Below, piece after piece: positions 10,391-44,194 of a DNA stretch of 64,000 nt. A program made the position numbers and the translations under genes. Under the pieces are notes generated by a model. It made no database searches. It saw only the letters and a program-made list of their open reading frames with translations, and was not told where the DNA came from. The stretch comes from an uncultured virus (IMG/VR IMGVR_UViG_3300031787_000017) (taxonomy: Duplodnaviria; Heunggongvirae; Uroviricota; Caudoviricetes), in the IMG/VR virus record IMGVR_UViG_3300031787_000017; one strand, 5' to 3'. Within the stretch, counting starts at the first letter, position 1. Each line of letters starts with the position of its first letter.

Positions 10391-10391
10391 G

Positions 10392-10718: not shown

Positions 10719-10738
10719 TTATTTTCCTCAATAAATGA

Positions 10739-18444: not shown

Positions 18445-18474
18445 AACAGATACGTTAAAATTTAAAATAAATTT

Positions 18475-19119: not shown

Positions 19120-19121
19120 AA

Positions 19122-23493: not shown

Positions 23494-23495
23494 AA

Positions 23496-25964: not shown

Positions 25965-26822
25965 TTATGAATTATAAAAAATTAAACTTTGTGGAGCAAA
26001 TAAAACTTTATTTCCAATTTTTGGTGATCCCCACATGCCATTAAATTCATTATTTTGATCGTCTACAGGTATAAAATTTAATTTACTTGTTAAAGAACTC
26101 AATACTTTAACCCTCTGTTTATAAACACTTTCAATATGAATTAAATCGATATTGGATAATTGACCCGTATGATACAATAATTTCATATCAAACCCTTTTA
26201 CATCATCAAATTCAATATTATCATACAATTTATAAAGATCACCTTCTTTACTTAACCAAATTTTCTTTTCAACTAATTGATCAAATAATTCTCTATAATC
26301 ATCCAGTGTAGCAAATAGATACTCATCATTATAGATAAAATTTTTGTAATAATCAAATAACGAATCACTCTTTTCAAATATAAAAAAAGCCGTTTCTTCT
26401 AATAAATCAAATTCTTTATTTTGTTGGTGTTTTTTACAATGATTATATACAAAATTTAAAAAATTATCTTTAAGTTCTATATTTCTATCATTCCAAAGTT
26501 TTCTATGAAACATAGTTTTTGAACTAGCATTAAGTTGAAATGCAAATTCGTTTAGTTCAAAAAAACCTTCCATACCTTTATGTACAATCATTTCAACAAA
26601 CTCAACATCAAAATGAGGAATGTTAAAGTGTAAAGGATAATAAAATTTATTTTCATTATATTCTTTTGTTGTAGTATCTACTCTACGTTTAACTCTAAAA
26701 TCTGGATAGCGTTCAAGTAATAACTTTTCTCTAGACAAACGAATGTTTCTCAAATAGTCACTTATTTGAGTATATTCTGAACCATTCAAATATTCTAAAT
26801 TGTTTACATCATAAAGTTTCAT
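25965..26822 (-). CDS. Hypothetical protein
   Basis: 285-aa ORF overlapping the upstream radical SAM gene; no motif recognised. Confidence 0.7.
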   Translation of the reverse strand: MKLYDVNNLEYLNGSEYTQISDYLRNIRLSREKLLLERYPDFRVKRRVDTTTKEYNENKFYYPLHFNIPHFDVEFVEMIVHKGMEGFFELNEFAFQLNASSKTMFHRKLWNDRNIELKDNFLNFVYNHCKKHQQNKEFDLLEETAFFIFEKSDSLFDYYKNFIYNDEYLFATLDDYRELFDQLVEKKIWLSKEGDLYKLYDNIEFDDVKGFDMKLLYHTGQLSNIDLIHIESVYKQRVKVLSSLTSKLNFIPVDDQNNEFNGMWGSPKIGNKVLFAPQSLIFYNS

Positions 26823-27744
26823 TTAATTCAACTTCAAAGCTAATTATGTTAAATTGACATTTTTTTTGTTGGCATTTTATAACTTTACCATTTAATAAAT
26901 TTTTAGAAGGATCAAGAAAAATATTTCCTATTGGTTTTTGTTCATTTTCAAAACAACACATAGTAACATCTCCATTTCTATCTACCTCATAAGCTCGAAC
27001 ATTACAGTTTTTACCAGTAAATAATAATTTAGTTTCTTTATACATTTCATACTTACCTTTATTGTAAGGTAAAATAGAACCATCGATTTTATATATTACA
27101 TCAAATTTATTTAAATATTTTTCAAATTTAGAATTCATATTAACTAATTGATTAATAGTTTCTAGAAGATTACTGTTATCTAGAACCAGAGGTTGCAATT
27201 TCATATTTTTTAAAGAATCAAATACTTCCTCAATATAATCTATATCATTTAAATAATCGTTATCGGTAAAAAAGAATAAAGAAGAATATTTAAAATTATC
27301 ATCAACCCATTTTACATTATTTTTAAATTGAACTTTATTTAAATTTTCAGTATGTAAAGTGCATGTTATTTTTACTTTATCTCCAAACTTTTTTAATAAA
27401 TTTAGTCTTTTTTTAAAAAAAGTTGGTTTATGATCGGCATGAGTTATGATTGAAAATTTATGATCAGGATGTGCATTAGTGTACAAATAATTTATTATTT
27501 CTTCAAAATTTTTATGTAAAAGAGGTTCTCCTCCTATCAATTCGATAATAATTTTTTTATTGTTCATAGACATTATTTTTTCAAGTCCTCTGAGAACACC
27601 ACTAATATCATTATTATAACGAACACCATTGGTGTCCGCAACATTGTAACAGTATGAACAACTCTTATCGCACAAAGTAAATAATTCAAATTCTACTAGA
27701 ACATGATCTCCTATAAATTCATTATGTGTTTTTATATGTTTCAT
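26809..27744 (-). CDS. Radical SAM protein with twitch-like C-terminal Cys domain
   Basis: CDKSCSYC, IGGEPLLH; C-terminal FTGKNC...GDVTMCC...KCQQKKC. Confidence 0.9.
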   Translation of the reverse strand: MKHIKTHNEFIGDHVLVEFELFTLCDKSCSYCYNVADTNGVRYNNDISGVLRGLEKIMSMNNKKIIIELIGGEPLLHKNFEEIINYLYTNAHPDHKFSIITHADHKPTFFKKRLNLLKKFGDKVKITCTLHTENLNKVQFKNNVKWVDDNFKYSSLFFFTDNDYLNDIDYIEEVFDSLKNMKLQPLVLDNSNLLETINQLVNMNSKFEKYLNKFDVIYKIDGSILPYNKGKYEMYKETKLLFTGKNCNVRAYEVDRNGDVTMCCFENEQKPIGNIFLDPSKNLLNGKVIKCQQKKCQFNIISFEVELNETL

Positions 27745-27755
27745 TTTGAAAAGTA

Positions 27756-28571
27756 TTATGACAAAGATTTTGCCTCTATACTTCGTTGAACAAATCTCAT
27801 CAATTCATTGTAATATTGATCATCAGTCATTTCTCGACCAGTAATTTTAAAACTTTGTACTCCAACTTGTTTTAACTTTTTCATGGCATTAGGCATCAGA
27901 TCCATACACTCGTATTTACTGTCTATATCTGGGTTAAATTTTGGCAACCAACATTCTTCTATTTCTCGACTATAAGGTCTGCCTGCGGTATTTTCATCAG
28001 CGATAGCTTTAAAGTGTGCATCATAGTGTTTACATCCATAAACACAAGTATCATTTAACATAACTTCCCATTTAGTTCTATCCAATTCGATAGTTCTAGG
28101 GTCAAATACATGCTCAAATCTAGGAACTATCCAATCATAATTTTTTTCGAGAACTTTAAAAAACTGAATATCTTCATCCTGTAATGGAATATTCAGTTGT
28201 CCCATTCCAGTTATACTATAAATTAATTCATAATCTGGATAATTTGAACGAACATATTTTCTCAGATCATCATTAACTATTATTAGTGCATTACCTTTTC
28301 GATGAAATTTTTCTAATAAATGATTACCAACTTCATCATTCAAATCTATCGTATGATTACTTAATGTTAAAGCTATACTTATACCTTTACTATAATAAAA
28401 ATTCATTAGATTTTCATTATAGTAAACATCTCTGTTAATTCTACCACCATTCCATTTACATTTATTTACTCCATCATATACTAATATTTTTGTATTGTCT
28501 ACAATTCTATTAGAAATAAATTTTATTATAGGAATGGTTTTACTGAAAGCACCAGCTATTAGGTATCTCAT
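27756..28571 (-). CDS. Peptidase U32-like Fe-S protein
   Basis: VYDG...WNGGR, EVMLNDTCVYGC....HF Cys cluster, later ECW, and FKITGRE resembling the U32 KIEGR motif. Confidence 0.7.
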   Translation of the reverse strand: MRYLIAGAFSKTIPIIKFISNRIVDNTKILVYDGVNKCKWNGGRINRDVYYNENLMNFYYSKGISIALTLSNHTIDLNDEVGNHLLEKFHRKGNALIIVNDDLRKYVRSNYPDYELIYSITGMGQLNIPLQDEDIQFFKVLEKNYDWIVPRFEHVFDPRTIELDRTKWEVMLNDTCVYGCKHYDAHFKAIADENTAGRPYSREIEECWLPKFNPDIDSKYECMDLMPNAMKKLKQVGVQSFKITGREMTDDQYYNELMRFVQRSIEAKSLS

Positions 28572-28579
28572 ATTCTATT

Positions 28580-29338
28580 CTACATTAAAAAACATTTAGG
28601 TTTTGGGCAAACGCCATCGGTTTTTATTCTATAACAACAGTTATATAAATCTAAGTTTGGCGCATAGAGAAAATATTTATCTTTATACAAACAAGGTTTC
28701 CCAAAAGTATTAAAGTTTGAATCTAACCACAATTCACTGCGTTGACGACCAAACCTATCGATATCCTCAAAATTAATTATCTTTTTATAAATCGAATTGT
28801 TTTTCAATGATTGATATTGTGAAAGTAAAGTATCACTATAACCATCTCCAAAGTCGGTAACTGGAGTCAAAAATAAATTGTCATGTGAAAAAGATTTTTT
28901 TATAGCAAAATAATAATCTATAGCTTCTTTTCCTGTGTACATAACATCTATGATTTTAATATTGACTTCAGTTTCTTTTAATCCGTCAACTATATCTTTT
29001 ATTGATGTTTCTGTTGGATGAATACTAATATTAACTTTAAAAGGTTCTTTTATTTGTTCGATTATTTTTCGACTGTAATTACTAAAGTTTGTTTGTATAA
29101 CAAAAGGTATACTAAATTCATTAAAAGTTTTTATTATAAATTCTATTTTAGGATGAACAAATGGTTCCCCACCGAACACAAAAATCTCTACATTAGGATA
29201 TTTTTCTCCTAAAGTTTTTATAAAACTTTTTATTTTTTCTTCATCCAATTCTGGTCTTATACTGGGGTCCAAATTCGTACAATATACGCATTTATAATTA
29301 CACTTAAGTGTAATTTCCCATTCAACAATTTTATTCAT
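28580..29338 (-). CDS. Radical SAM protein with twitch-like C-terminal Cys domain
   Basis: WEITLKCNYKCVYC, FGGEPFVHP, QTN; C-terminal GKPC...YNCC...VCPKPKC. Confidence 0.9.
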   Translation of the reverse strand: MNKIVEWEITLKCNYKCVYCTNLDPSIRPELDEEKIKSFIKTLGEKYPNVEIFVFGGEPFVHPKIEFIIKTFNEFSIPFVIQTNFSNYSRKIIEQIKEPFKVNISIHPTETSIKDIVDGLKETEVNIKIIDVMYTGKEAIDYYFAIKKSFSHDNLFLTPVTDFGDGYSDTLLSQYQSLKNNSIYKKIINFEDIDRFGRQRSELWLDSNFNTFGKPCLYKDKYFLYAPNLDLYNCCYRIKTDGVCPKPKCFLM

Positions 29339-30233
29339 TTTTTATTTTTAATTGTTTTAAAAGACCATCACAATTACAAGCTTTATGTGGACAAATCATA
29401 GGAATAGTTTTCGTAATATTTTTAAAAAAATCTCTATTACTTAAAAGATTCACATTATCAGTTTTAGGCATACAAAATTTTACTACGTTGCCTTTAACAT
29501 CAATTTCATAATTATTATTGTAACAACTCCATCCCTTGAAGTTTGTCATCTTATCTCTAAAGATAATATAGTCATTAAAAAAATCGTCATCATATTTGAG
29601 TTCTTTTTCATAAGACTCTAAAAAAGAAAAATATTCCCAAAAATCTTTTCTATAATTAAACAATTTTGTAATACTGTTGCCGTATAAAAAATGTGGATGC
29701 ACTTTTAAATTAGGTATTTTTTCTAAAGTTTCAAACATGTTTTTTATTTTTGGCCAAAGTTTTTTATCATGATGTAACATTACATTAACTTTACACTTAT
29801 AACCTCTATTCAACATGTGATTTATATTATTTAAAAATCTATTTTCGTCAGTACAATCAGCTGGGTGATAACTAAACAAAAATGCCAGTCTATCATAATC
29901 TGGGTGAGTTGTCAAATCTTTTTCAGCATTAGTAACAACATATACCCAATTAAATTTTTCCATTTTACTAATTGAATCTAAAATATAATAGTAATGTGGA
30001 CCTAGAGTTGGTTCACCACCTAATAATCCAAGATTAAAATTTAGACTGCTTCGATTTAGAGCGTCCAAAACTGCATCTATTACTGTTTTGCTCGATAACT
30101 TACCCCATTCTTTACCATATTCATTTCTAGCGTAACAATAAGAACATTTAAGTTGACAGATAGTTAAACTGTCCCAATGAATATTAATGTGATCTGGATC
30201 TTGATCTTTATGATGTTGTATTTTATACTTCAT
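29331..30233 (-). CDS. Radical SAM protein with twitch-like C-terminal Cys domain
   Basis: CQLKCSYC, LGGEPTL, VTN, FSYHP; C-terminal FKGWSC...KFC...ICPHKACNC. Confidence 0.9.
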   Translation of the reverse strand: MKYKIQHHKDQDPDHINIHWDSLTICQLKCSYCYARNEYGKEWGKLSSKTVIDAVLDALNRSSLNFNLGLLGGEPTLGPHYYYILDSISKMEKFNWVYVVTNAEKDLTTHPDYDRLAFLFSYHPADCTDENRFLNNINHMLNRGYKCKVNVMLHHDKKLWPKIKNMFETLEKIPNLKVHPHFLYGNSITKLFNYRKDFWEYFSFLESYEKELKYDDDFFNDYIIFRDKMTNFKGWSCYNNNYEIDVKGNVVKFCMPKTDNVNLLSNRDFFKNITKTIPMICPHKACNCDGLLKQLKIKNE

Positions 30234-30894
30234 ATTTTTTTAAAAAATCTAAAGACGAGGTTATGTTTATATCTTTTTTTGTGTCTGGAAAAGATATATT
30301 ATCATTCCCATCTTTTGTCTGATAAAAAAACACTTTACCAGTAGTTCTAAATGATTTAGAGTTACCTGAAGCGTGATAAACTAATCTGATATCATTATGT
30401 ATATTGTTGTCTTTACCAAATAAAAAATCACCTATAACTTCTTTATTAAATATAAATTGTCCTAATTGTAGATGTTCAAGATTCAATTTATTTAAAAAAT
30501 CAATTTTGTTGTTAATATTTTCGTCTTTAAACATATTTACTATTTCTAATAAATTGTCAGGTTTGTAAGTTGGATAGTAATTTCCTGCTATTATATCAGA
30601 ATCAAATTCTTGATTAAAAAAATCATTTCTCAAATAATCATCATCTTCCAAAAAATAGATATATTTACCTTTTGATTGTAAAAATAAAAATTCGTATATA
30701 CTTGATAAGTTATCAAATTTTTTATAAAAATATTTGACATTAGGATTTAAAATTTCTTCAATATCACAACTATCATTATTTACAATAATTTCTGTTTGGG
30801 GTGTTATTTGAGATAAAACCGATTTTATACATCTATCGAATAAAGTGGGTCTTTTGTGGGTTAATAATAAAATAGAAAGTTCAACATTTAACAT
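30223..30894 (-). CDS. Glycosyltransferase family 2 (GT-A)
   Basis: SILLLTHKRP...CIKSVLSQ...IIVNND and GKYIYFLEDDD (DxD) motifs. Confidence 0.85.
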   Translation of the reverse strand: MLNVELSILLLTHKRPTLFDRCIKSVLSQITPQTEIIVNNDSCDIEEILNPNVKYFYKKFDNLSSIYEFLFLQSKGKYIYFLEDDDYLRNDFFNQEFDSDIIAGNYYPTYKPDNLLEIVNMFKDENINNKIDFLNKLNLEHLQLGQFIFNKEVIGDFLFGKDNNIHNDIRLVYHASGNSKSFRTTGKVFFYQTKDGNDNISFPDTKKDINITSSLDFLKKYEV

Positions 30895-31880
30895 ACAATT
30901 TTTATCTTCTCACCCAAGATAGGATTAAGATTGACCTTTCCTTTTAGTTCATTTTCTACACCATCACAAACATAAAAATATTTACATTTTAAACATTCTT
31001 CAGTTTTAAAACAACTATAAATTCTCAAACGATCTGCTTCAGAAAAACACTGATCCACTTTTTGTTCATGTGTGTAAGAAATTTTAGTATTTAAAGTTTC
31101 ATTATAAACTGCTTTATTCCAATCCTTCATATCATATATGTGATGATAATGATTTTTTATATACTTTTCTTTTGATGGCATGAAGCAGTAAGGAAAATAT
31201 CTAGCGTTTACTTCAACAAAATCTTTTAATTGATCAATATAATCAGATACATGTGAACAAATAATTTCATAATTTATAGGTTGAAAATCTTTATTGTCTC
31301 TCCAATAATTTAAAGCTATAAAATTTACCTGTGAAGGGCTTAAAGACTTTATAAATGAGGTATCTATTTTATCAAAGTTTTCATGATATATTGTTGTGTT
31401 TAACCTAACTTCGATATTTAATTTGTGTGAGTTTTCGACAGCTTTAATTAAATTATTAAAAGCTCCTTTTTTACCTACAATTTTGTCATGAATATTTTCA
31501 TCCGTACAATGCAAACTAAAAAGTATTTCTCTTAATCCTAAATCATAACTTTTTCTTATAAAATCTTCATCACTAAATTTTCCTCCATGACTAAGGCAAC
31601 TGATTCTATCGAATTTATTTCGACAGTAATTTAATATATTAAACCAGTTTGGTTCAACGCTACTTTCACCACCACTTAGATCGATTTCTCTTATGCCATA
31701 ATCAAGTAAATAATCTATTCTTTTGTATATTTTTTCAAGTTCATCTCTTTCAGTCAAACTATTTTTATAGTAACAAAATTCACATTTATAATTACAAAGT
31801 TTACCTGTGTCCAATTTAGCCCTACTATTAATAGGTCTATTATAATCAACAGTAACTTTATTAACACTTAATTTGTTCAT
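30888..31880 (-). CDS. Radical SAM protein with C-terminal CxxCxxxxxC motif
   Basis: CNYKCEFC, LSGGE, HDKIVGKKGAF, FPYC and C-terminal CLKCKYFYVCDG; ATG at 31880 preferred over TTG at 31883. Confidence 0.9.
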   Translation of the reverse strand: MNKLSVNKVTVDYNRPINSRAKLDTGKLCNYKCEFCYYKNSLTERDELEKIYKRIDYLLDYGIREIDLSGGESSVEPNWFNILNYCRNKFDRISCLSHGGKFSDEDFIRKSYDLGLREILFSLHCTDENIHDKIVGKKGAFNNLIKAVENSHKLNIEVRLNTTIYHENFDKIDTSFIKSLSPSQVNFIALNYWRDNKDFQPINYEIICSHVSDYIDQLKDFVEVNARYFPYCFMPSKEKYIKNHYHHIYDMKDWNKAVYNETLNTKISYTHEQKVDQCFSEADRLRIYSCFKTEECLKCKYFYVCDGVENELKGKVNLNPILGEKIKIVC

Positions 31881-32739
31881 CAATGTACTTTATTAAAAGG
31901 TCATCTTTTGTTAGGGACGTGTTTTGAATACCATCTTTTTTCCTAACTTCCAGTGCCTTATCATAATAATCTACATCATAAATAATTTCTTTATCATAAT
32001 ACATACACTCCAAAATAAATCTACTAGAACAATCTTTTTTACCTGGCAGTTTGGTATAAACATATGTAGAAAACTTGTTCCACATATCAGGCACAGGAAC
32101 TTTATATGTATTAAAATTTTGGTATAATTCTGGTTTATTCGTAAAAATTATACTATCTTTAATTGAATATTTATTGATGACTTCAGTTAAATCTTCTTGT
32201 GGTAAGAATCGACTAACATCAGTTAAATAAAACATGGAAGAGTTTTCAATTTTTCCATCTATAGTTTTGAATTTAGAATATAAAATTTTCTTTTTATAAT
32301 CTATAACATTTAGTCCTTCTGGTATATCATCATATATCTCAAAATCTTGAAATAGATGGCTTGAAAATTTTTTATTTGAATAATAACTGAAATCTTTCTC
32401 ATGACATCTTAAAAGAAAAAAGTTGTCACAATAAATTTCAGAATTATTAAACTTGGAATATCCGTCAACTATTAATAAATTTTTCGTTAATAATAGTTTT
32501 GGATAAGGATGATAGACTAAATTTTCAATGGTTAAATCATGGTATTTCGATTTTAAAGCTATATTGAATTCTTCAATAGTCGTACCATCAGACAATAATA
32601 TACAAGGATTTAAATTTGTCCAATTTTTTATAGCCCAATAGTATTCAATCATTTCAAATAAATGGCCACAAATACCAAATTTAAAGTTATATGAAGTGGT
32701 TATTACCAAATCATAACTTCTCAAATTAATTAAAGACAC
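31861..32739 (-). CDS. Hypothetical protein, possibly GT-B glycosyltransferase-like
   Basis: 292-aa ORF; C-terminal YVYT...DCSSRFILECMYYDKEIIY resembles the GT-B donor-binding (D/E)-x7-E segment. Confidence 0.45.
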   Translation of the reverse strand: MSLINLRSYDLVITTSYNFKFGICGHLFEMIEYYWAIKNWTNLNPCILLSDGTTIEEFNIALKSKYHDLTIENLVYHPYPKLLLTKNLLIVDGYSKFNNSEIYCDNFFLLRCHEKDFSYYSNKKFSSHLFQDFEIYDDIPEGLNVIDYKKKILYSKFKTIDGKIENSSMFYLTDVSRFLPQEDLTEVINKYSIKDSIIFTNKPELYQNFNTYKVPVPDMWNKFSTYVYTKLPGKKDCSSRFILECMYYDKEIIYDVDYYDKALEVRKKDGIQNTSLTKDDLLIKYIDEQIKC

Positions 32740-32745
32740 TTAAAA

Positions 32746-33849
32746 TTATTTCAAAATAATTTGATCTATACTAAGTGGATTGTATCCTAGATACTCAAAA
32801 AAGTTTTTTGGAACTTGATTTACAACATCTTGTTTTAAATTGTTGTCTAAAATATTTTTAACATATTCAGATTTTAGTACATCAAAAAATAAATTTAAAT
32901 TTTGATTCAAGTCAAAATTTGAAAAAATTTCTTGAAAATTGTCGATAGAGAAATTTTCTATAGATGAAGATTCGCATTTAAATAATTCAAATTCGTTTAT
33001 AATACTATTATAATTTGATAATTGATTTCTCAAAAAAATTTCTTTGTCGTCAAGTAAAAATTTTTCGTTTTTTAAATAATCTTCATATTTAATATTGATT
33101 ACATTTGGTAAAGATTTTACTAATACCATATTAAAGATAGAAAAAATAAAATTTTTAAACTTATTATTTTTTTTAATATAATCTTCTTCATACCTTATTG
33201 CATCAAAATTATAATCTAAATTATTTATGAAAGAGCAAACACTAGGATTTCTTATAATATTTAAAACTCTAACATTTTCTTCTCCTAGTTCTTCTTTAAC
33301 TTTTTGTATAAAAGATGGTGAAAATATTCCTGTCCATATATTATATGAATTTTTTTCTTTAAAAGAATTTAAGATATTCTGATACTCTAACGCATTGGAT
33401 ATTAAAATTTTTTTAATATCTTCATTAGAATAAATATCTTTATACCTAGAGTTTGATTGTAGATTTGTTATTTCATCTTCCATTAAAACAAAAGATTCAA
33501 GATTGTAAAAAAAACTATCAAGATTGGTAGTTATCCAAGAAACTTCAATATGGTTTTCATTAAAAATTTTATCTGTTAGTTCAATATTAAATTCTTCTAT
33601 CCTTTGTATTAAAGAATAATTTTTTTGTTTTAATTCATCATCTTCAACATTCAGTAAACCATAATTTATTTTTCCTAAAGATTCATTATTACAATATACA
33701 TTTTTTTGTTCAGAATCAAAAATTATAAAATCATCGTTTCTATATTTTACGGTATATTCATCAAATTCCCAAACTTTTTCGGCGTCAAGAATACTTCTAG
33801 ATATGTATTTTAGATTTACAGTTTTAGGACCATTTATTAAGGTTATCAA
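32746..33849 (-). CDS. Hypothetical protein, sulfotransferase-like P-loop fold
   Basis: N-terminal LINGPKT, NIIRNPS and INIKYEDY echo sulfotransferase motifs; TTG start. Confidence 0.5.
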   Translation of the reverse strand: MITLINGPKTVNLKYISRSILDAEKVWEFDEYTVKYRNDDFIIFDSEQKNVYCNNESLGKINYGLLNVEDDELKQKNYSLIQRIEEFNIELTDKIFNENHIEVSWITTNLDSFFYNLESFVLMEDEITNLQSNSRYKDIYSNEDIKKILISNALEYQNILNSFKEKNSYNIWTGIFSPSFIQKVKEELGEENVRVLNIIRNPSVCSFINNLDYNFDAIRYEEDYIKKNNKFKNFIFSIFNMVLVKSLPNVINIKYEDYLKNEKFLLDDKEIFLRNQLSNYNSIINEFELFKCESSSIENFSIDNFQEIFSNFDLNQNLNLFFDVLKSEYVKNILDNNLKQDVVNQVPKNFFEYLGYNPLSIDQIILK

Positions 33850-33851
33850 AA

Positions 33852-34271
33852 TTATCTCCTTAAGTAAGACTCAATAATTTCATTAACACTTTTCTCATCA
33901 TTTAAATCTGGTAAAACTTTTAATTTATCAATTATATTATAAAATTCGTCTTTTTTTTCTTGTAATTGTTTAATTGAATCCATAAGGTTGATATATTTTT
34001 CCAACTTATTAATAAGTTCAACATCGCCTGTTTCTATAATTTTGATATAAACTTCTTCTCTAAGTTCTTCGGTTATGATGTATCCCTTTGAAGCCAGTTC
34101 ATTGTTAATAGTCATAAAACTGACGAAATCCAATAATTTAAACGTCAAAAGTTCATCACCAAAAATTCCTCTAGCTTTTGTTTTACATGCTAGAGCAGCT
34201 TTACCCGCATAAGTATTCGCGTCTATACCTTCAATTTCAACTCGTTTTTCTTCCATAAAATTTATCTCCAC
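33852..34271 (-). CDS. Hypothetical helical protein
   Basis: 139-aa ORF directly downstream of the Cys-repeat gene; the true start may be the ATG a few codons in (MEEK), which follows GGAGA. Confidence 0.7.
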   Translation of the reverse strand: MEINFMEEKRVEIEGIDANTYAGKAALACKTKARGIFGDELLTFKLLDFVSFMTINNELASKGYIITEELREEVYIKIIETGDVELINKLEKYINLMDSIKQLQEKKDEFYNIIDKLKVLPDLNDEKSVNEIIESYLRR

Positions 34272-34280: not shown

Positions 34281-35207
34281 TTATTTAATCTCAAAAGGAA
34301 GTTCAGAATAATTAACCATATAAAAACCATTTTTGGTCATATAAACAGCATTAGAATATTTTGTTTTTAGAAGTTCTTGGGCCATAACACCGACAAAAGT
34401 CTCATTACTCCAAATATAAGAAAAACTGTAAACATTAATTCCAAAAATATTCTTCAAATATTTAATATTCCTTTTCAATCGTCTGTCACTATAATTACAA
34501 TTGCATGTGCAAGAATAATTGCAGTTACATGTACAATAATTACAGTTACATGTACAATAATTACAGTTACATAAACATACTGCGCCAGCATCTTTTACTT
34601 TTTTAATTAAAGCATTAATGTCTGTCGCACTTATTCTAGTTGATAGTTGTGCGTTATTAGTGGTAGATATACCGGCAAATCCAGTAACAAAACCTGCTAC
34701 CGAAATTGCAGGACCTCGGTCTACTTGTGGATTAGTAGTATTTGGTCCACCCCAGAGTTCAACACCACCAAAAGCTACAAATTGAGTGCCGTTAGGAAAA
34801 ATTCGTTGCGTTAATTGAGAACCCGAACTTACAACACTTTCTCCTCCGGATGACGATGTAGTTATGAGACCAAATGTCCTAGCTCCCGTTCTCTCTATCG
34901 AGGCTTTTAAATTATTTATTTGGGACGATGTTATGGAAGTGCCGGAACTGACAGTTGATCCTGACGGTGCAGAAAGTCCTCGCCTAGTACATTCAGACGC
35001 ATAAGCGGTTCTAATAGCATTTATTGATGCAGCCCCAATTAACGATCCTGCTGTAACATCAGTCAAAGAATAAGTTGTAGCAACTGCAGCGCCATTATAA
35101 ACGTTTGCTTTTACTATGTAGGTTCCACTAGCATCGTTGTCAGGGTTGTAACCCTTTGCATGACCAGAGGAAGCAGGAGGTCTTTTTTTGGAAGATGAAT
35201 ACGGCAT
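34281..35207 (-). CDS. Virion-like protein with a Cys-rich (CxCNCNY)x4 tract and C-terminal peptidase S74 intramolecular chaperone
   Basis: S/T/G/A-rich N-terminal region; CLCNCNY-CTCNCNY-CTCNCNY-S-CTCNCNY directly followed by SDRRLKRNI...GVMAQEL...VNYSEL, the S74 chaperone signature. Confidence 0.85.
   Translation of the reverse strand: MPYSSSKKRPPASSGHAKGYNPDNDASGTYIVKANVYNGAAVATTYSLTDVTAGSLIGAASINAIRTAYASECTRRGLSAPSGSTVSSGTSITSSQINNLKASIERTGARTFGLITTSSSGGESVVSSGSQLTQRIFPNGTQFVAFGGVELWGGPNTTNPQVDRGPAISVAGFVTGFAGISTTNNAQLSTRISATDINALIKKVKDAGAVCLCNCNYCTCNCNYCTCNCNYSCTCNCNYSDRRLKRNIKYLKNIFGINVYSFSYIWSNETFVGVMAQELLKTKYSNAVYMTKNGFYMVNYSELPFEIK
34491..34577 (-). repeat. 21-bp tandem repeat encoding four CxCNCNY heptads (12 Cys in 29 aa)
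   Basis: ataattacagttacatgtaca at 34536-34556, with variants at 34515-34535, 34557-34577 and 34491-34511. Confidence 0.95.
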
Positions 35208-35208: not shown

Positions 35209-35589
35209 TTAAATCTCTTTTGATAAGAAGTTTAAATTATCTTTAACTTTATTTTCTTCTAAAAATTTTTCATAATCATCAACATCAACAGTAGATGATA
35301 AAAAGTCCATAGTTTCTTTATCGGGTTCTTTATCTGACAAAGAATCTTCTGAAGATTCTTTAATTATATACATCACCATTTCTTCTAAAGAAAAACCTAA
35401 AATGTTAGAAACAAGATTTATTTGATCGGAAATATCTAAAGTTCCTTTAAAGTCCTCTTTAGAAATAGTTTCCAGAACATTTATTGATAGACCTAATCCA
35501 TCCAATAATACTCTACCCGCAACATTATCTTCTTCAGATATCTCACCCATAAGTCTAATTATTTCTTCTATTTTTTCAGTGGTTTTCAT
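35209..35589 (-). CDS. Acidic hypothetical protein
   Basis: 126-aa D/E-rich ORF translationally coupled between a radical SAM gene and the Cys-repeat gene. Confidence 0.7.
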   Translation of the reverse strand: MKTTEKIEEIIRLMGEISEEDNVAGRVLLDGLGLSINVLETISKEDFKGTLDISDQINLVSNILGFSLEEMVMYIIKESSEDSLSDKEPDKETMDFLSSTVDVDDYEKFLEENKVKDNLNFLSKEI

Positions 35590-36449
35590 ACCAATTCCTT
35601 TTCTTTAAAATCTCGAAATTTTGGGGAACTCTCAATATTGAAATGTGTAGTAACATTTCCTTCGTCTGTAAAATACGTTTTAATTTCTTTTCTAATACTA
35701 CATCCGTCACAAATATCACAAAATAGAGAACATACAGGCGACTGAATCTCATTATTTATCCAACTTAACCTGAGATTTTCTTTCATAGAATCTAAAAGTT
35801 TTAAGTCTTTCTCACTCAAAGTATCCCAGGCGACAGAGGTTATAAGTCTCTCCGGCCTAAAAGTTTTGATTAGTTTAGTTATATCTTCGGAAGCTCGCCT
35901 TATATTCAATTTATGAATGGTATATCTTATTCGAAACCTGAAATTATTTTCCAATAACTTCTTAAATATCTTTACCATAAATGGTGTTGATTCCATACCA
36001 TTGTGAAAAACTCTGTCTTTATTACCAACTCCATCAAAACTCACATCTATAGATAATAACTTCTTCTTATAAAAAAAATTATTTTTAGTTACGTCTATGA
36101 AATCTTGGCTTAAATATTTAATACCATTTGTTGTCATATTAAAATGAACATTCTTCTTTTTACTATAGGCATAGTCCATAGCAAAACAAACATTTTCCCA
36201 TTCTAATGTTGGCTCTCCACCAAACAATACTATAAGAGTTTGCTGACTCGGATCCTCACGTTCTAAAATTTTATCAATACTTTTTACAATATCTTCTTTA
36301 CTTAAAATTTGCGGCGGTCTTCCTGGTAAATCTTCATAGCAATACGTGCAAGCTAAGTTGCATTTATTGGTAAAATATAATACATTTACACCAGATCCAG
36401 AAACTATTGGTTTATTAGGATCTTGTATGTAAAATTGTTCTACATTCAT
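35586..36449 (-). CDS. Radical SAM protein (anSME/peptide-maturase-like, short Cys tail)
   Basis: FTNKCNLACTYC, LFGGEPTL, MTTNG, VSFDG; C-terminal CSLFCDICDGC. Confidence 0.9.
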   Translation of the reverse strand: MNVEQFYIQDPNKPIVSGSGVNVLYFTNKCNLACTYCYEDLPGRPPQILSKEDIVKSIDKILEREDPSQQTLIVLFGGEPTLEWENVCFAMDYAYSKKKNVHFNMTTNGIKYLSQDFIDVTKNNFFYKKKLLSIDVSFDGVGNKDRVFHNGMESTPFMVKIFKKLLENNFRFRIRYTIHKLNIRRASEDITKLIKTFRPERLITSVAWDTLSEKDLKLLDSMKENLRLSWINNEIQSPVCSLFCDICDGCSIRKEIKTYFTDEGNVTTHFNIESSPKFRDFKEKELV

Positions 36450-36745
36450 TGTATTATCATTTTATGAGAATTTTTATATCTATTTTCTTTTGGACGTTTT
36501 TTAGCTTCTTCAATTATGTGTCGCATGTTGTCCAAAAATTTGATATAATCTAATTTGTAATCAAATAAATGTCCGGCTTCATTATATCCAACATATTTAC
36601 TATCAACTTTAGCTTTACCTTTTCTAGCTTCTTCAATCTGCACTGATAACTCATCAACAGGAATTACTTTGTTTGATGCATGTTCAACAGGTTGCATCTC
36701 AACCTTTATTGGTATAGATAATAAACTTTTAAAATTTTTTTTCAT
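36446..36745 (-). CDS. Hypothetical protein
   Basis: 99-aa ORF with overlapping start/stop codons on both sides, between radical SAM genes. Confidence 0.65.
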   Translation of the reverse strand: MKKNFKSLLSIPIKVEMQPVEHASNKVIPVDELSVQIEEARKGKAKVDSKYVGYNEAGHLFDYKLDYIKFLDNMRHIIEEAKKRPKENRYKNSHKMIIQ

Positions 36746-37593
36746 TAAATTTCCTTAGGATACATCATAAGTCCACCTTCACAAATTTCTTTCGGACAAA
36801 TAACTTTTTTTGTAATATCTTTTAAAGATAACGGCATAATTTCATTAGTGCAAACATTTTTAACCAAATTATCCAATTCTATTTGAAAAGATTCTGGCAC
36901 ACATTTATAATCTCTAAAAGAATTTTTTTTCTCATATAATAATTTTAAATCTGTTGTTCTTTCTTCCGAACCATCATCATATAAAACATTTATATCTATC
37001 ATATCTTCAGCATTAGAAGCTTCTGTAAAAAAATCTTGATCTAAGTTATTTGTGTAATATGGAGTATCAACTAAAAAATTTAATTTAAATTTAATATTAT
37101 TAGATTTACAGTTATCAATAATATTTAAAATATAGTTTTTATACTCTGGCATCATACTTATATGAACTTCACAATTTAGATTTTTACACTTTTTTAAAAA
37201 ATCCTCTTTGTGATATTCTGGATGAAAAGATGCATAATACTTAACTTTTGAAAAACTTTTTATACTTTTATAAAAAGTTTCCGATCTAGTCAAGTTGGTA
37301 AAAAAATAAATTTTTACCAAATTTTTAATTTCATTTAATCCTTCCAGTATTTCTTCAATATTTGGATGTAATGTTGGTTCACCACCAGTTAAACAAATCT
37401 CAAAAGGTTTAGAAATAGTTTTTAATCTACTTATTATTAACTTGTAACTTTGTGCAATCTGAGTCGTATCATTGTAATCATAACTTAAATTTTCCTTTAC
37501 ATTACAGTATGAACACTTCAAATTACACCAATTCAATATATGCCAGTTAATTCTAAGAATTTTATCTTGACTGGTGCAAGAAATAATTTTCAT
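36745..37593 (-). CDS. Radical SAM protein with twitch-like C-terminal Cys domain
   Basis: WCNLKCSYC, LTGGEPTLHP, FTN, ASFHPE; C-terminal FRDYKC...NVC...ICPKEIC. Confidence 0.9.
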   Translation of the reverse strand: MKIISCTSQDKILRINWHILNWCNLKCSYCNVKENLSYDYNDTTQIAQSYKLIISRLKTISKPFEICLTGGEPTLHPNIEEILEGLNEIKNLVKIYFFTNLTRSETFYKSIKSFSKVKYYASFHPEYHKEDFLKKCKNLNCEVHISMMPEYKNYILNIIDNCKSNNIKFKLNFLVDTPYYTNNLDQDFFTEASNAEDMIDINVLYDDGSEERTTDLKLLYEKKNSFRDYKCVPESFQIELDNLVKNVCTNEIMPLSLKDITKKVICPKEICEGGLMMYPKEI

Positions 37594-37594: not shown

Positions 37595-38719
37595 TTAATT
37601 CCTACACTCTACGCCTTCATTTTCAACACCAACATTTTCAATATAATGTAATACTAAATCTTGAAAAACTGGAACATCCTTACACTCATCAACAACTCTT
37701 AAACCCTGTTCATAATATATGTGAAATAATTCACAAATACTATCCAATGGTTTATTGTCATTCATAATTTGAGAATAAGTGCATCCAGTATTACATACTT
37801 GTTTTAAATCGCAAGGTTCACATTTATCAAAACTTTTAGGATTAAATATATCTTGATAATATTTAAAATTATATTGTTCGTCCATCTTCATAATTTTTTT
37901 AGATGCAAATCTGGCGCAAGGATAAAATTCACCAGAACTCATCAAAACTCCACCATTGGTTCCTGCAAAACATCCAAATGATCTTTTTCCTTTTACTAAT
38001 CCATATAGTGTGTCCAAAATAGCTAGTCTGAGAAAGCCAACTGAACAAGCTTTACCTGATTTTAGTTTTTCTATCCAAAAATCCGCCAATCTTTCACATT
38101 CATATCTAAACTGTTTGATATCTTCTACAGTCCAAACATCATCTCGAACTATACTAAAATCGGGATGATCTATACCCCAATCTAGTAAGAATTGGAAATT
38201 CTCCGTCATATCTTTGGTATTACCTGGCCATATCATAACTTTACAACCGTTTGTTAAATCTTTTATGATTTCTTTCTTGTACTCATACATTGAAAGAATA
38301 CCATCAAATAAATCTCCAGTTTCTGGATTAGTATTTTCTAAAAGTGGTAATAAAGGTCTAGTTTCATTTGAACTCATACCATCAAAAGACCAAGAAACAC
38401 CGACACCATTTTCTTTTAAATAATGAGCTTTATTTTCATCAATCATCGTAAGATTTGTGATGATATTAATACCTTTACATTTCTTATCCGATTTCAAATA
38501 AGGAACGGCGTGAGTTATAAGATCCCAATTTAATAGTGGTTCACCACCAAAAAAACTTACATGATAATCCCTATCTCCCGATCTTTGCATCAAGTTGGGC
38601 AAATCTTTCATACCTTGATCGAAAACCTCTTTCGTCATCCAAGTTGGCCTATTTGCTACATAACAATAAGGACAACCTAGATTACATTTTTCAGTAACAC
38701 TTACCTCTAATGTAAACAT
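37595..38719 (-). CDS. Radical SAM/SPASM domain protein
   Basis: CNLGCPYC, FFGGEPLLN, SFDG; SPASM Cys set CFAG...YPCARF...CEPC...VCNTGC...IC. Confidence 0.92.
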   Translation of the reverse strand: MFTLEVSVTEKCNLGCPYCYVANRPTWMTKEVFDQGMKDLPNLMQRSGDRDYHVSFFGGEPLLNWDLITHAVPYLKSDKKCKGINIITNLTMIDENKAHYLKENGVGVSWSFDGMSSNETRPLLPLLENTNPETGDLFDGILSMYEYKKEIIKDLTNGCKVMIWPGNTKDMTENFQFLLDWGIDHPDFSIVRDDVWTVEDIKQFRYECERLADFWIEKLKSGKACSVGFLRLAILDTLYGLVKGKRSFGCFAGTNGGVLMSSGEFYPCARFASKKIMKMDEQYNFKYYQDIFNPKSFDKCEPCDLKQVCNTGCTYSQIMNDNKPLDSICELFHIYYEQGLRVVDECKDVPVFQDLVLHYIENVGVENEGVECRN

Positions 38720-38729: not shown

Positions 38730-39836
38730 TTAAACTGTGCATTGTTCAGCCTCGATTTTAATCGTAGGCTTTTTATAACTCTTTAGTGCTGTTCTTAGAG
38801 CATGATGTACTATCTCATTCGTTTTGAATACCTTACATACCTGCCAATTAGCTGTATGATCACTCCATTTTTCTAAATAAGTTTCTTTTTCAGATTTCTC
38901 ATAAGTCGCAGCATTACACTTCATACAAAACTGACTATCGCAACTCATACAGTCTAGTGGTTGATTTTTCAATGCGTCTTTATACATCTGAGATTTTTCT
39001 TCAATCAACTGATCTAAATCTGGAACTTTAAAAATATTACCGAGTTTATGTGAATGAGATTCTTTATACATGCATCCGTGACAAGGACTTAAATCCCCAT
39101 TCAAGTCCACACTCACATAATTTATACCTGCAGCACATAGAGCTCTAGACTGTTGAAACCATCCAAATTTTTCAGGAGGTAATTTGTTATCATAAATGTG
39201 TTTAGCAATTTTTTTCAATCCATCCTTCAAAACTTCTAATCTAGGCATGAATTCTTCTTCATTCAACTGACTGTATAAGTCTGGTGTTGGAAAATAATTA
39301 TTATCCATTTCTATTACATCTAGAAATGCTTCATAAATTAAATGGAAATTATCGGATGTCAAAACAGATTTCAATGAAACATTTAGCCCAGCTTGTTTAG
39401 CTGCAATATAGTTTGCTTTAACTAAGGCTGATGATGGAGTACCAGACTTAGTTACTCTTGCGATATCATTTACTGGTTTTCCATCATATGAAACTTGTAA
39501 CTTTAGTCTACCTGGAATTTCATTATGAATTCTAACCAAATCTTTTAAATATCTTTTTAAATATGTTCCATTTGTATAGAAGAAAAAAGAAAACCCAGGA
39601 TCGTGTTTAAACTTCTCAATAACACCTTTACAAAAATCCCAATTAACAAACGGTTCGCCACCCCAAAAATAAACATCCTTTTTAGGATCAGAAATTTTAG
39701 CCATAAATTCTTCAACATTATCTAATGTCAAAGAAGTATTTTCTTCAAACTCAGTAGATAGACCACACTCAAAACCTTCGGAACAATATGTGCAAGCTAA
39801 ATTGCAAATACTTGTTACGTTTATATCTACTACCAT
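38730..39836 (-). CDS. Radical SAM/SPASM domain protein
   Basis: CNLACTYC, FWGGEPF, YTNG, VSYDG; SPASM Cys set CAAG...SPCHGC...CMSC...FCMKC...VC; AGGAG RBS. Confidence 0.92.
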   Translation of the reverse strand: MVVDINVTSICNLACTYCSEGFECGLSTEFEENTSLTLDNVEEFMAKISDPKKDVYFWGGEPFVNWDFCKGVIEKFKHDPGFSFFFYTNGTYLKRYLKDLVRIHNEIPGRLKLQVSYDGKPVNDIARVTKSGTPSSALVKANYIAAKQAGLNVSLKSVLTSDNFHLIYEAFLDVIEMDNNYFPTPDLYSQLNEEEFMPRLEVLKDGLKKIAKHIYDNKLPPEKFGWFQQSRALCAAGINYVSVDLNGDLSPCHGCMYKESHSHKLGNIFKVPDLDQLIEEKSQMYKDALKNQPLDCMSCDSQFCMKCNAATYEKSEKETYLEKWSDHTANWQVCKVFKTNEIVHHALRTALKSYKKPTIKIEAEQCTV

Positions 39837-43944: not shown

Positions 43945-43953
43945 TTCTGATTA

Positions 43954-44193: not shown

Positions 44194-44194
44194 A

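What the first reader, a model, noticed from the sequence alone, without database searches (positions are those of the whole stretch)
34281..35207. Self-cleaving virion-like protein with a (CxCNCNY)x4 core: candidate substrate of a phage RiPP-like maturation system
Seen: a 308-aa protein with structural-protein composition sits inside an island of enzyme genes. It carries CLCNCNY-CTCNCNY-CTCNCNY-S-CTCNCNY (12 Cys and 4 Tyr in 29 aa), fused directly to SDRRLK...GVMAQE...VNYSEL. Four radical SAM genes lie within 5 kb upstream on the same strand. Established: peptidase S74 domains (endosialidase-type intramolecular chaperones) trimerise their passenger and cleave themselves off at the conserved Ser. 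Radical SAM/SPASM enzymes install thioether or C-C crosslinks in Cys-rich or aromatic precursor peptides (sactipeptides, ranthipeptides, triceptides). Inference: after autocleavage the Cys tract becomes the free C-terminus of a trimer with 36 Cys. It may be crosslinked, metallated or otherwise tailored by the neighbouring enzymes, giving a virion-tethered RiPP-like tip that has its own built-in follower protease. I do not know of a characterised system like this.
Basis: partly seen in the sequence, partly recalled or inferred. Interest (0 to 1): 0.95.

Follow-up and report, generated by a model that had tools for sequence, protein, structure and literature searches.

The report
Phage cysteine-heptad fibre protein with radical-SAM cassette
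A small phage protein ends in four near-invariant Cys-x-Cys-Asn-Cys-Asn-Tyr repeats followed by a self-cleaving folding domain, and its gene almost always lies beside iron-sulfur enzymes of the cysteine-stapling kind, so the phage probably cross-links one of its own fibre-like proteins, which has not been shown by experiment.

Summary
Window 34281-35207 (-) encodes 308 aa with CLCNCNY-CTCNCNY-CTCNCNY-S-CTCNCNY (residues 211-239). SDRRLK and a Pfam S74 domain above its cut-off follow directly.

It belongs to a large unnamed phage family: 1309 clusters at E<=1e-10. Heptad positions are almost fixed over 753 units, while the DNA drifts.

In 23 of 24 distinct viral groups a radical-SAM-motif gene lies within 5 kb. 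34 of 36 records carry 3-16 radical SAM genes.

Three enzymes form the conserved core (37595, 38730, 35586). They lack an N-terminal recognition domain. 37595 keeps all seven SPASM cysteines. All three are closest to the thioether-forming ranthipeptide maturases CteB and PapB.

Among 50,697 deposited phage records, both genes occur together only in group II Campylobacter phages.

Best reading (about 0.6): the enzymes install Cys-to-Asn/Asp/Gln thioethers (C-x-x-N/D/Q, twice per heptad). The S74 domain then cuts at Tyr239|Ser240.

Not shown: any cross-link, trimer formation, virion location or metal binding. S74 is modular in the family (fused, split or absent).

My searches found no paper on this system. 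The closest precedent is archaeal CrpA/CrpC (2026). This scan noted the same theme earlier on other DNA.

The parts
34281..35207 (-). Gene of the 308-aa cysteine-heptad protein (stop codon 34281-34283)
   Evidence: ORF list. 560 homologues at E<=0.001, and each of the 120 listed carries at least 3 C.C.C.. units.
34977..34994 (-). Residues 72-77 (E-C-T-R-R-G): the end of a conserved helix in the N-terminal domain, and a candidate recognition element
   Evidence: R75 and R76 are invariant and E72 is at least 90% conserved in 87 sequences. AF2 gives helix 59-75 with block pLDDT 90-97. The role is inferred.
34581..34628 (-). Helix 194-209 directly before the heptads (...INALIKKVKDAGAV)
   Evidence: AF2 model, blocks 94-96 pLDDT. 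The consensus I-x-A-S-x-I-N-x-L-I-x5-A-G-A-V is kept in A1.
34491..34577 (-). Heptad array, residues 211-239: four C-x-C-N-C-N-Y units with one Ser inserted before the last
   Evidence: All 12 Cys are invariant in 87 sequences. Position statistics over 753 units.
34284..34490 (-). S74 / intramolecular chaperone auto-processing domain, residues 240-308. The predicted cut lies between Tyr239 and Ser240.
   Evidence: PF13884 above its cut-off. S240, D241, R243, L244 and K245 are invariant. The Ser to Lys+5 spacing matches T5 pb1 Ser1264/Lys1269, which cuts at Thr1263|Ser1264 (PMC4690869, passages). Fold matches to ICA-domain proteins in BFVD.
37595..38719 (-). Radical SAM/SPASM enzyme, 374 aa, core cassette member
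   Evidence: PF04055. Best NCBIfam hit is PapB at E 6.6e-38, covering 5-320 of 330 positions but below the cut-off. Best PDB hit is CteB 5wgg at 1.2e-17, aligned from CteB residue 102. Invariant Cys at 12, 16, 19, 250, 268, 300, 303, 309, 313 and 329 in 21 orthologues.
38730..39836 (-). Radical SAM/SPASM enzyme, 368 aa, core cassette member. Its orthologue lies directly before the heptad gene in divergent loci.
   Evidence: PF04055. PF13186 SPASM reaches only 21.1 bits against a 21.5 cut-off, but the NCBIfam SPASM domain TIGR04085 scores 31.5 against 27. PapB 1.1e-21. CteB 2.6e-11. Synteny.
35586..36449 (-). Radical SAM enzyme, 287 aa, third core cassette member
   Evidence: PF04055. PapB 2.9e-25. 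CteB 4.7e-9. Orthologues in most loci.
36745..37593 (-). Radical SAM enzyme, 282 aa, variable member. It is absent at this position in many relatives.
   Evidence: PF04055. Best NCBIfam hits are viperin-like and MoaA. Synteny.
36446..36745 (-). 99-aa protein without Cys, conserved between the enzyme genes, function unknown
   Evidence: 12 distinct orthologues. No Pfam, PHROG or NCBIfam hit.
35209..35589 (-). 126-aa acidic protein without Cys directly upstream of the heptad gene, function unknown
   Evidence: 12 distinct orthologues at this position. No family hit.
33852..34271 (-). 139-aa all-helical protein directly downstream. It is the most widely kept non-enzyme neighbour.
   Evidence: phrog_25260. 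Orthologues in 18 further distinct loci, including divergent ones. AF2 pLDDT 89, five helices. No informative fold match, best Z 7.2.
26809..33849 (-). Second conserved block. In order: 367-aa protein, 292-aa protein, rSAM 331, GT2 223, rSAM 300, rSAM 252, 271-aa protein, rSAM/SPASM 311.
   Evidence: Pfam. Synteny. Its link to the heptad protein is unknown.

Best explanation
The gene encodes a fibre-type phage protein made of four parts:
- a folded N-terminal domain with an invariant Arg-Arg helix end;
- a helix;
- a C-[T/V/L]-C-[N/D/Q]-C-N-Y heptad array;
- a C-terminal S74 intramolecular chaperone.

It is the protein substrate of the two or three SPASM radical SAM enzymes encoded beside it.

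Proposed steps:
1. The newly made, still unfolded heptad array is threaded into the enzymes. They abstract a hydrogen from the Asn/Asp/Gln three residues after a Cys and join it to that Cys sulfur. This gives non-reducible thioether (ranthionine-type) rings at C1 to N4 and at C3 to N6 in every heptad. The third Cys may be linked by the third enzyme or stay free.
2. The S74 domain brings three chains together.
3. Once the trimer is correctly formed, Ser240 activated by Lys245 cuts the Tyr239|Ser240 bond. The stapled array is left as the free C-terminal tip.

Shown here: the sequence features, the S74 membership, the enzyme class and the conserved gene neighbourhood.

Inferred: that the enzymes act on this protein, the thioether chemistry and its sites, the order of events, trimer formation, and that the product is part of the particle.
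For: 1. Neighbourhood. PF04055 occurs in 34 of 36 viral records that encode a heptad protein, at 3-16 copies each, and in 6 of 6 records at least 90% complete. An rSAM-motif ORF lies within 5 kb, on the same strand, in 33 of 36 loci. That is 23 of 24 groups after merging at 90% identity. In 7 loci the enzyme gene ends 0-169 nt before the heptad gene.
2. The one group without an enzyme neighbour (L013/L014) consists of fragments that end 0.9-1.6 kb after the gene. Its relative L039 has the three orthologous enzymes 3.2-8.6 kb downstream.
3. The adjacency holds across different gene orders: the L003 type, L011, L015/L022, L016/L017, L024, L025, L026 and the Campylobacter phages.
4. Reverse test. 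76 loci were found with the 37595 enzyme family. 50 hold a heptad ORF and 11 hold another Cys-dense ORF. Among the 43 loci on contigs not seen before, the figures are 20 and 8 (my hand tally).
5. Deposited phages. The heptad protein was found in 15 records and the 37595-like enzyme in 16. Fifteen of these 16 are the same group II Campylobacter phages. The source paper reports 11-12 radical SAM proteins per genome and a 21-bp in-gene repeat, and does not link the two (PMC2853527, passages).
6. Enzyme class. PapB is the best NCBIfam hit for all three core enzymes. SCIFF, QhpD and CcpM follow. CteB is the best PDB hit for all three. 37595 keeps the full seven-Cys SPASM pattern.
7. Substrate grammar. 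Position 4 is N 79%, D 16%, Q 3%. Position 6 is N 95.5%, D 3%. This gives two C-x-x-[N/D/Q] motifs per heptad. C-X-X-Q/D is the motif that the CrpA paper reads as suggestive of rSAM thioether formation (PMC13692751, section 8).
8. Selection acts on the protein. 110 CTCNCNY units are encoded by 60 different DNA versions.
9. No other neighbour has cysteines to donate. The 99-aa and 126-aa proteins have none (for the 126-aa protein, for the 99-aa protein).
10. Precedent. CrpC, a SPASM rSAM, installs ranthionine links on the Cys-repeat protein CrpA (PMC13692751, abstract and section 12).
Against: - No cross-link has been observed in any member of the family.
- The enzymes score far below the NCBIfam equivalog cut-offs (130.8 bits against 340 for PapB). 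The chemistry therefore cannot be read from family membership. Other SPASM chemistries also hit, more weakly: cyclophane formers (YhhB 3.4e-15) and anaerobic sulfatase maturase (9.2e-15).
- No recognition (RRE) domain was found. The enzymes start at the CxxxCxxC motif (C12 in 37595) and align to CteB only from about residue 100. The 139-aa neighbour is a plain helical bundle.
- In Campylobacter phages only one rSAM lies within 5 kb, and in CP21 it is split into two ORFs. The 37595-like enzyme lies elsewhere in the genome.
- L038, a CP220-like 832-aa protein on a MAG contig, has no rSAM-motif ORF in the 14.5 kb held.
- 15 of the 76 enzyme-anchored loci showed no Cys-dense ORF by the script.
- The loci are relatives, so part of the co-occurrence is shared descent.
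- A Cys ladder, an Asn ladder and a Tyr stack would also fit an unmodified beta-helix.
- The array is modelled at pLDDT 45-56 in the monomer.
Confidence: 0.6

Rival explanations
1. Unmodified structural array. The heptads fold, with the help of the S74 chaperone, into a trimeric beta-helix or prism. Its inward-facing Cys ladder is held by disulfides or by bound metal ions. The neighbouring radical SAM enzymes act on something else, for example a sugar nucleotide or a cofactor used by the glycosyltransferases in the same island.
For: - S74 domains normally follow trimeric, intertwined fibre segments, and their cut depends on correct trimer formation (PMC4690869, passages).
- The strict alternation C-x-C-x-C plus Asn and Tyr fits a beta-solenoid pattern (inference).
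- The island also holds GT2, nucleotide-sugar dehydrogenase, epimerase/dehydratase and deacetylase genes.
- Five of the eight radical SAM genes in the window are small and hit viperin-, MoaA- or QueE-like families first.
- There are precedents for Cys or His rows in phage fibre ends. One is the P22 tailspike cysteine annulus (PMC3357383, search listing and start of abstract only). Another is the His-x-His iron sites of the T4 long fibre tip (recalled, not checked).
Against: - The three enzymes that travel most faithfully with the gene are of the peptide-maturase SPASM type, not the small-molecule type.
- Relatives of these enzymes sit next to other kinds of Cys-dense proteins and peptides.
- Positions 4 and 6 tolerate only N, D or Q, the known thioether acceptor residues. 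A surface or turn position would be expected to vary more.
Confidence: 0.25
2. The protein is a substrate of the radical SAM enzymes, but the chemistry differs. Options are cyclophane links from the invariant Tyr, epimerisation, Cys oxidation to formylglycine, or methylation.
For: Tyr is 98% conserved at position 7. YhhB, AmcB and FxsB cyclophane formers, anaerobic sulfatase maturase and other SPASM families all appear among the hits. Several further radical SAM genes in the island have no assigned substrate.
Against: Thioether formers are the top hits for all three core enzymes in both libraries. The invariant feature of the array is its cysteine content.
Confidence: 0.1
3. The Cys array is an iron-sulfur or metal reservoir or scaffold that supplies the many phage radical SAM enzymes, each of which needs one to three 4Fe-4S clusters. 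It is not a structural protein.
For: The window has 8 radical SAM genes, and relatives have up to 16 per record. The array has 12 Cys in 29 residues. The CrpABC proteins are reported as upregulated on pyrite (PMC13692751, section 8).
Against: An S74 domain, tandem paralogues with differing N-terminal domains and a position among giant structural genes all point to a fibre. No Fe-S scaffold family matched.
Confidence: 0.05

Closest known systems
CrpA/CrpC of Methanococcus voltae (PMC13692751; abstract and sections 8 and 12 read)
   Same: A SPASM radical SAM enzyme is encoded next to a full-size protein with a C-terminal Cys-repeat region. The repeat contains a C-X-X-Q/D type motif, and that paper predicts a beta-helix for it. 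Ranthionine thioethers were shown there by MS.
   Different: The system is archaeal, not viral. It has a 17-residue repeat, not a heptad. CrpC has a predicted RRE, and the phage enzymes have none. There is no S74 domain. I did not see the CrpC family (TIGR04463) among the 25 best NCBIfam hits shown for the phage enzymes.
Ranthipeptide systems: CteB/CteA (SCIFF, PDB 5WGG/5WHY) and PapB/PapA
   Same: These are the best PDB and NCBIfam matches of all three core enzymes. 37595 has the seven-Cys SPASM pattern. The partner is rich in Cys.
   Different: Their substrates are short leader-core peptides. This substrate is a 308-aa folded protein. The phage enzymes lack the first ~100 residues of CteB. 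Scores are far below the equivalog cut-offs.
S74 / intramolecular chaperone auto-processing domains of phage fibres and spikes (K1F endosialidase, T5 pb1)
   Same: The Pfam match is above the cut-off. Ser and Lys+5 are invariant. The domain is C-terminal.
   Different: The passenger here is a short Cys heptad array, not a long beta-helix or receptor-binding domain. The window's domain ends at ...VNYSELPFEIK, without the helical tail seen in the split forms. In the family the domain is often split into a 12-residue tag plus a separate 88-103-aa protein, or is absent.
QhpD/QhpC (quinohemoprotein amine dehydrogenase maturation)
   Same: A radical SAM/SPASM enzyme forms Cys-to-Asp/Glu thioethers inside a protein subunit (recalled). 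TIGR03906 is among the top hits of the phage enzymes.
   Different: It is a bacterial redox enzyme subunit with no repeats and no viral context. Scores are far below the cut-off.
P22 tailspike C-terminal cysteine annulus (PMC3357383, search listing and start of abstract only)
   Same: Cysteines in the trimeric C-terminal part of a phage adhesin are linked to auto-chaperone folding.
   Different: It has three Cys per chain, no repeats and no modifying enzymes.

Membership tests
Peptidase S74 / ICA domain (PF13884) | Profile match above the curated cut-off | tested here: met
   29.6 bits against 22, residues 240-288, profile positions 1-57 of 58.
Peptidase S74 / ICA domain (PF13884) | Catalytic Ser at the domain start with Lys five residues later | tested here: met
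   S240 and K245 are invariant in 87 sequences. The spacing matches T5 pb1 Ser1264/Lys1269.
Peptidase S74 / ICA domain (PF13884) | Trimer formation and self-cleavage | not testable with these tools
   Only a monomer model was made. No trimer job was run.
Radical SAM/SPASM peptide or protein maturase (enzymes 37595, 38730) | CxxxCxxC cluster motif plus the seven-Cys SPASM pattern | tested here: met
   For 37595, C12/C16/C19 and C250, C268, C300, C303, C309, C313, C329 are invariant in 21 orthologues. For 38730, the NCBIfam SPASM domain TIGR04085 scores 31.5 bits against 27, while Pfam PF13186 scores 21.1 against 21.5, just under its cut-off.
PapB / SCIFF ranthipeptide maturase equivalogs (NF047865, TIGR03974) | Score above the curated equivalog cut-off | tested here: not met
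   130.8 against 340 for PapB and 87.1 against 425 for SCIFF, both for 37595. The enzymes resemble these families but are not members.
RiPP-type maturation system | RiPP recognition element, fused or as a separate protein | tested here: inconclusive
   There is no N-terminal extension on the enzymes. The 139-aa neighbour is an all-helical bundle. The 99-aa and 126-aa neighbours were not folded.
RiPP-type maturation system | Conserved co-location of the Cys-rich substrate gene and the maturase gene | tested here: met
   23 of 24 distinct groups. 34 of 36 records. Reverse test: 61 of 76 loci hold a heptad or other Cys-dense ORF.
Ranthipeptide-like substrate | Cys donor with an Asp/Asn/Glu/Gln-type acceptor at fixed spacing | tested here: met
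   C1-x-x-[N/D/Q]4 and C3-x-x-[N/D]6 occur in 98-99% of 753 units. This is a sequence pattern only.
Ranthipeptide-like substrate | Thioether bond actually present | not testable with these tools
   This needs mass spectrometry.
Virion structural protein | Detected in purified particles | not tested
   The IBB_35 virion proteome tables are old .DOC files that could not be read. The legend of Figure 3 in the CP220 paper, in the part I saw, did not include CPT_0180.

The most novel reading that the evidence does not exclude
Phages make a tethered, RiPP-like product on one of their own proteins. Dedicated SPASM radical SAM enzymes, possibly one per Cys position, turn the heptad array into a fully thioether-laddered rod that cannot be reduced and resists proteases. 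Removal of the S74 chaperone then exposes this rod as the tip of a small trimeric fibre. The family has diversified this tip. There are different Cys grammars paired with different enzyme clades. There are tandem paralogues that share one trans-acting chaperone. Some forms are born already 'cleaved'. Together these would make it a widespread, enzyme-hardened adhesion or stability device of aquatic and gut T4-like phages.
Probability: 0.3. Interest if true: 0.9.

Novelty: new variant of a known kind. Interest (0 to 1): 0.8.

Why it matters
Radical SAM genes are rare in phages. Their abundance in Campylobacter group II phages has stood unexplained since 2010, when it was put down to host metabolism (PMC2853527). 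This finding gives a concrete and testable substrate.

If the reading is right, enzymatic thioether stapling is not confined to small secreted peptides. It would also be used on a fibre-type protein of a virus, in a family with more than a thousand 50%-identity clusters in public data.

It would also extend the first report of protein-level ranthionine links, in archaea in 2026, to viruses. It would show a new passenger for S74 chaperones. It would offer a short, genetically encoded, enzyme-stapled repeat for protein engineering.

Tried and rejected
- Complex prediction of enzyme 37595 (with SAM and three 4Fe-4S clusters) with residues 186-256 of the heptad protein gave no answer: score 0.01 against a mark of 0.32, and the controls were not run. 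This counts neither for nor against binding.
- Foldseek of the monomer model against the PDB gave no match at E<=0.001. BFVD returned only ICA-domain proteins.
- A PDB sequence search with the heptad protein gave only chance rows, best E 0.088.
- The 139-aa neighbour gave only generic helical-bundle matches, best Z 7.2. I dropped the idea that it is an RRE.
- Small ORFs between the enzyme genes in divergent loci are not detectably related to the 99-aa protein (hmmsearch E>0.1).
- The Protein Atlas suggested a sulfotransferase for 32746 (scores 0.94-0.95, 136-158 shared features) and a glycosyltransferase for 31861 (0.90). Pfam did not confirm either, even at E<=5. I keep them as leads only.
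- The genome-contig scan matched 409 stretches by pattern but confirmed only 3. The low-complexity filter of the confirmation step may have removed real ones.
- A whole-MAG radical SAM search for L038 and L039 could not be mapped to the L038 contig.
- Cluster look-up of homologues held by NCBI gave no names.
- RNA libraries: two freshwater metatranscriptome runs hold eight 151-301-nt contig pieces identical to the window. They cover parts of the heptad gene and of four neighbouring genes. These are contigs from RNA libraries that may contain DNA, so transcription is not shown. I take them only as a hint of a freshwater habitat.
- Paper searches found nothing relevant. The motif terms CTCNCNY, CNCNYC and CNCNY gave no relevant hit. 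Searches for phage with radical SAM, ranthipeptide, tail fiber, virion, thioether, SPASM or RiPP found no paper on this system. PMC11118758 holds none of the terms ranthipeptide, radical SAM, phage-encoded, viral RiPP or sactipeptide.
Full report
OBSERVATION

The ORF at 34281-35207 on the minus strand encodes 308 aa. Residues 211-239 are CLCNCNY CTCNCNY CTCNCNY S CTCNCNY, which is 12 Cys and 4 Tyr in 29 residues. SDRRLK follows directly.

The degenerate DNA pattern for the heptad occurs 4 times in the window, all in this gene, against 0.03 expected. The four units differ at synonymous sites.

Pfam places a Peptidase_S74 domain at residues 240-288, above its cut-off. PHROGs match only the same C-terminal part, plus phrog_26958 over residues 190-240.

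Four radical SAM ORFs lie within 4.6 kb upstream on the same strand, and four more lie downstream. All eight pass the PF04055 cut-off.

CONTEXT

The window is part of an uncultured T4-like myovirus. Baseplate genes gp5, gp6, gp25 and others fill 50-64 kb. The gp6 homologue is 37-43% identical to those of Methylophilales, Pelagibacter and Synechococcus myoviruses.

The nearest held record is a 73-kb viral fragment with one copy of the gene. Two freshwater RNA-library runs hold short identical pieces. That hints at habitat and nothing more.

The enzyme island sits between giant structural ORFs: 1880 aa and more than 3463 aa on one side, 1103 aa and a 2067-aa DUF4815 protein on the other.

THE FAMILY

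A word-indexed search gave 560 homologues at E<=0.001. Each of the 120 listed carries at least three C.C.C.. units. A full profile search of 1.84 billion representatives gave 7760 hits at E<=0.001 (this includes plain S74 proteins), 1309 at E<=1e-10 and 90 at E<=1e-30.

Residue frequencies over 753 units in 155 distinct proteins:

| Heptad position | Residues |
|---|---|
| 2 | T 81%, V 7%, L 7% |
| 4 | N 79%, D 16%, Q 3% |
| 6 | N 95.5%, D 3% |
| 7 | Y 98% |

Most proteins have four units (119 of 155), and the maximum is 28. 110 CTCNCNY units in 36 proteins use 60 different DNA versions, so selection acts on the peptide.

In an 87-sequence alignment all 12 Cys are invariant. So are Y217, Y224 and Y239; S240, D241, R243, L244 and K245; and R75 and R76 in the N-terminal domain.

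The AF2 monomer model is confident for residues about 41-110, for helix 194-209 and for the S74 domain. It is poor for the array, at pLDDT 45-56.

S74 IS MODULAR

In T5 pb1 the cut is Thr1263|Ser1264, with Lys1269 as the base (PMC4690869, passages). The same spacing puts the cut here at Tyr239|Ser240.

In relatives the domain is often split. The heptad protein ends twelve residues after the Ser (SDxxLKxxIxYM), and the next ORF of 88-103 aa carries the rest of the domain. This is seen in L009, L016, L017, L021, L035, L036 and L098. In L009 and L021, three or four tandem heptad paralogues share one such ORF.

Breakdown of the best 150 representatives:

| Form | Count |
|---|---|
| Heptads plus full S74 | 31 |
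| Heptads plus only the short tag | 54 |
| Heptads with another ending or none | 41 |
| No heptads | 24 |

Some of the 41 end exactly at ...CNCNY. The conserved unit is therefore the N-terminal domain plus the Cys array, not the protease.

LINK TO RADICAL SAM ENZYMES

Thirty-six viral loci encode a relative.
- PF04055 is present in 34 of 36 records, at 3-16 matches each.
- By a CxxxCxxC-motif proxy, 33 of 36 loci have such an ORF within 5 kb on the same strand.
- After merging at 90% identity this is 23 of 24 groups.
- The exception, L013/L014, is a pair of fragments that end soon after the gene. Its relative L039 has the three orthologous enzymes 3.2-8.6 kb downstream.

Orthology mapping shows a core that is kept through several gene orders: the 37595-like, 38730-like and usually the 35586-like enzymes, plus the 33852-like helical protein. 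36745 is variable.

In the reverse direction, 76 loci were found with the 37595 family. Of these, 50 hold a heptad ORF, 11 hold another Cys-dense ORF and 15 hold none by the script. By eye, the 15 break down as follows:
- two carry a six-Cys array variant of the same protein family (L098, L103);
- one carries a truncated heptad gene (L055);
- five end near the enzyme gene (L058, L099, L102, L106, L109).

Thirty-three of the 76 lie on contigs already in the first set. Among the other 43 the counts are 20, 8 and 15 (my hand tally).

Enzymes at 26-31% identity pair with a different array (CxCNxDC...CGCNY) on the same N-terminal domain, or with short CxxC-rich peptides. This looks like enzyme and substrate changing together. 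Relatedness of the loci could give the same picture.

Among 50,697 deposited phage records the heptad protein occurs in 15 and the 37595-like enzyme in 16. Fifteen of those 16 records belong to the same group II Campylobacter phages. Their authors counted 11-12 radical SAM proteins and noted a 21-bp in-gene repeat, but proposed a role in host metabolism (PMC2853527, passages).

WHAT THE ENZYMES ARE

All three core enzymes hit PapB first in NCBIfam, then SCIFF, nif11-type, QhpD and CcpM maturases. All scores are far below the equivalog cut-offs. CteB (5WGG/5WHY) is the best PDB match for all three, aligned from about CteB residue 100 onward. The phage enzymes therefore lack a fused recognition domain; C12 already belongs to the cluster motif. 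37595 keeps a full seven-Cys SPASM pattern in 21 orthologues.

MECHANISM

The heptad contains two interleaved C-x-x-[N/D/Q] motifs: C1 to position 4 and C3 to position 6. C-X-X-Q/D is the pattern the CrpA/CrpC paper reads as a thioether signature. That paper shows by MS that a SPASM enzyme installs ranthionine links on a Cys-repeat protein (PMC13692751).

I therefore propose thioether stapling of the unfolded array, followed by S74-assisted trimer formation and the cut at Tyr239|Ser240. Only the sequence, family and neighbourhood parts of this are shown. The rest is inferred.

RIVALS

- An unmodified beta-helix held by disulfides or metal, with enzymes that serve the sugar genes of the island (0.25).
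- A different chemistry on the same substrate (0.10).
- An Fe-S reservoir (0.05).

COMPARISON AND NOVELTY

The system works like CrpA/CrpC and the ranthipeptide systems, but it is not a member of their curated families. It is a member of S74.

My paper searches found no description of the motif or of radical SAM modification of a phage structural protein. This scan has noted the same theme before on other DNA.

I rate it a new variant of a known kind, with interest 0.8.

Noticed in passing
L009:8963-11286, L021:8264-11094, L016:9662-10543, L017:9560-10464, L035:9674-10548, L036:9470-10445: Split S74. The heptad proteins end in a 12-residue SDxxLKxxIxY[MLIF] tag, and the next ORF (88-103 aa) carries the rest of the chaperone domain. 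In L009 and L021, three or four tandem paralogues share one such ORF.
   Followed up: partly
L094:12430-12897, L098:12308-12826, L103:5074-5568, L111:12408-13076, L116:12334-13122: The same N-terminal domain, and in L098 and L111 the same S74 tail, carry a different Cys array (CxCNxDC...CxCHxxCGCNY type). They sit next to more distant relatives (26-31% identity) of enzyme 37595.
   Followed up: partly
L091-L093 near 17834-19271 (Campylobacter phages CPt10, CP220, CP21): About 7 kb downstream of the 37595-like enzyme lie further Cys-dense ORFs built of C-x-x-C-type repeats. In CP21 they are 172 aa with 47 Cys and 284 aa with 76 Cys. They may be further substrates.
   Followed up: no
L110:4075-4543, L114:9486-9728: Short Cys-rich peptides (69-80 aa, 17-18 Cys) lie directly upstream of a distant 37595 relative. 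This is a classical leader-core RiPP layout in a viral contig.
   Followed up: no
window 26809-33849 (-): A second conserved block lies downstream. It holds a 367-aa protein (sulfotransferase-like by the Protein Atlas only), a 292-aa protein (glycosyltransferase-like by the Atlas only), an HxsC-like rSAM, a GT2, two small rSAMs, a 271-aa protein and an rSAM/SPASM. The substrate is unknown.
   Followed up: partly
window 20648-25947 and 39892-40629 (-): Sugar and cofactor genes surround the cassette. They are a 245-aa nucleotide-sugar dehydrogenase lacking the usual C-terminal domain (kept at 244-247 aa in relatives), an NAD-dependent epimerase/dehydratase, a BshB1/LmbE-like deacetylase, a transketolase-like N-terminal ORF (25207) with a weak C-terminal-like match in a separate ORF (23496, E 5.6e-4), and a Trp-halogenase-family flavoprotein.
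   Followed up: no
P0147, P0151: Some family members end exactly at the last heptad Tyr. That is the C-terminus predicted for the S74-cleaved form of the window's protein.
   Followed up: no
L015, L016, L017, L022, L036 heptad proteins, first ~25 residues: Many divergent members start with a Cys/His-rich segment of the type M-x-C-x-G-H-[ST]-N-x-C-x-x-H. The window's protein lacks it.
   Followed up: no
L024:1947-2231: A 94-aa ORF among the radical SAM genes looks like an acyl carrier protein (a D-S-M/L motif, judged by eye and from memory). It was not tested with any profile.
   Followed up: no
window 2-16384 and 40633-50398 (-): Giant ORFs flank the island: more than 3463 aa (open at the window end), 1880 aa, 1103 aa and 2067 aa (DUF4815, phrog_358). 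The C-terminal part of the 1103-aa protein is also found in the ORF that precedes the cassette in divergent loci.
   Followed up: no
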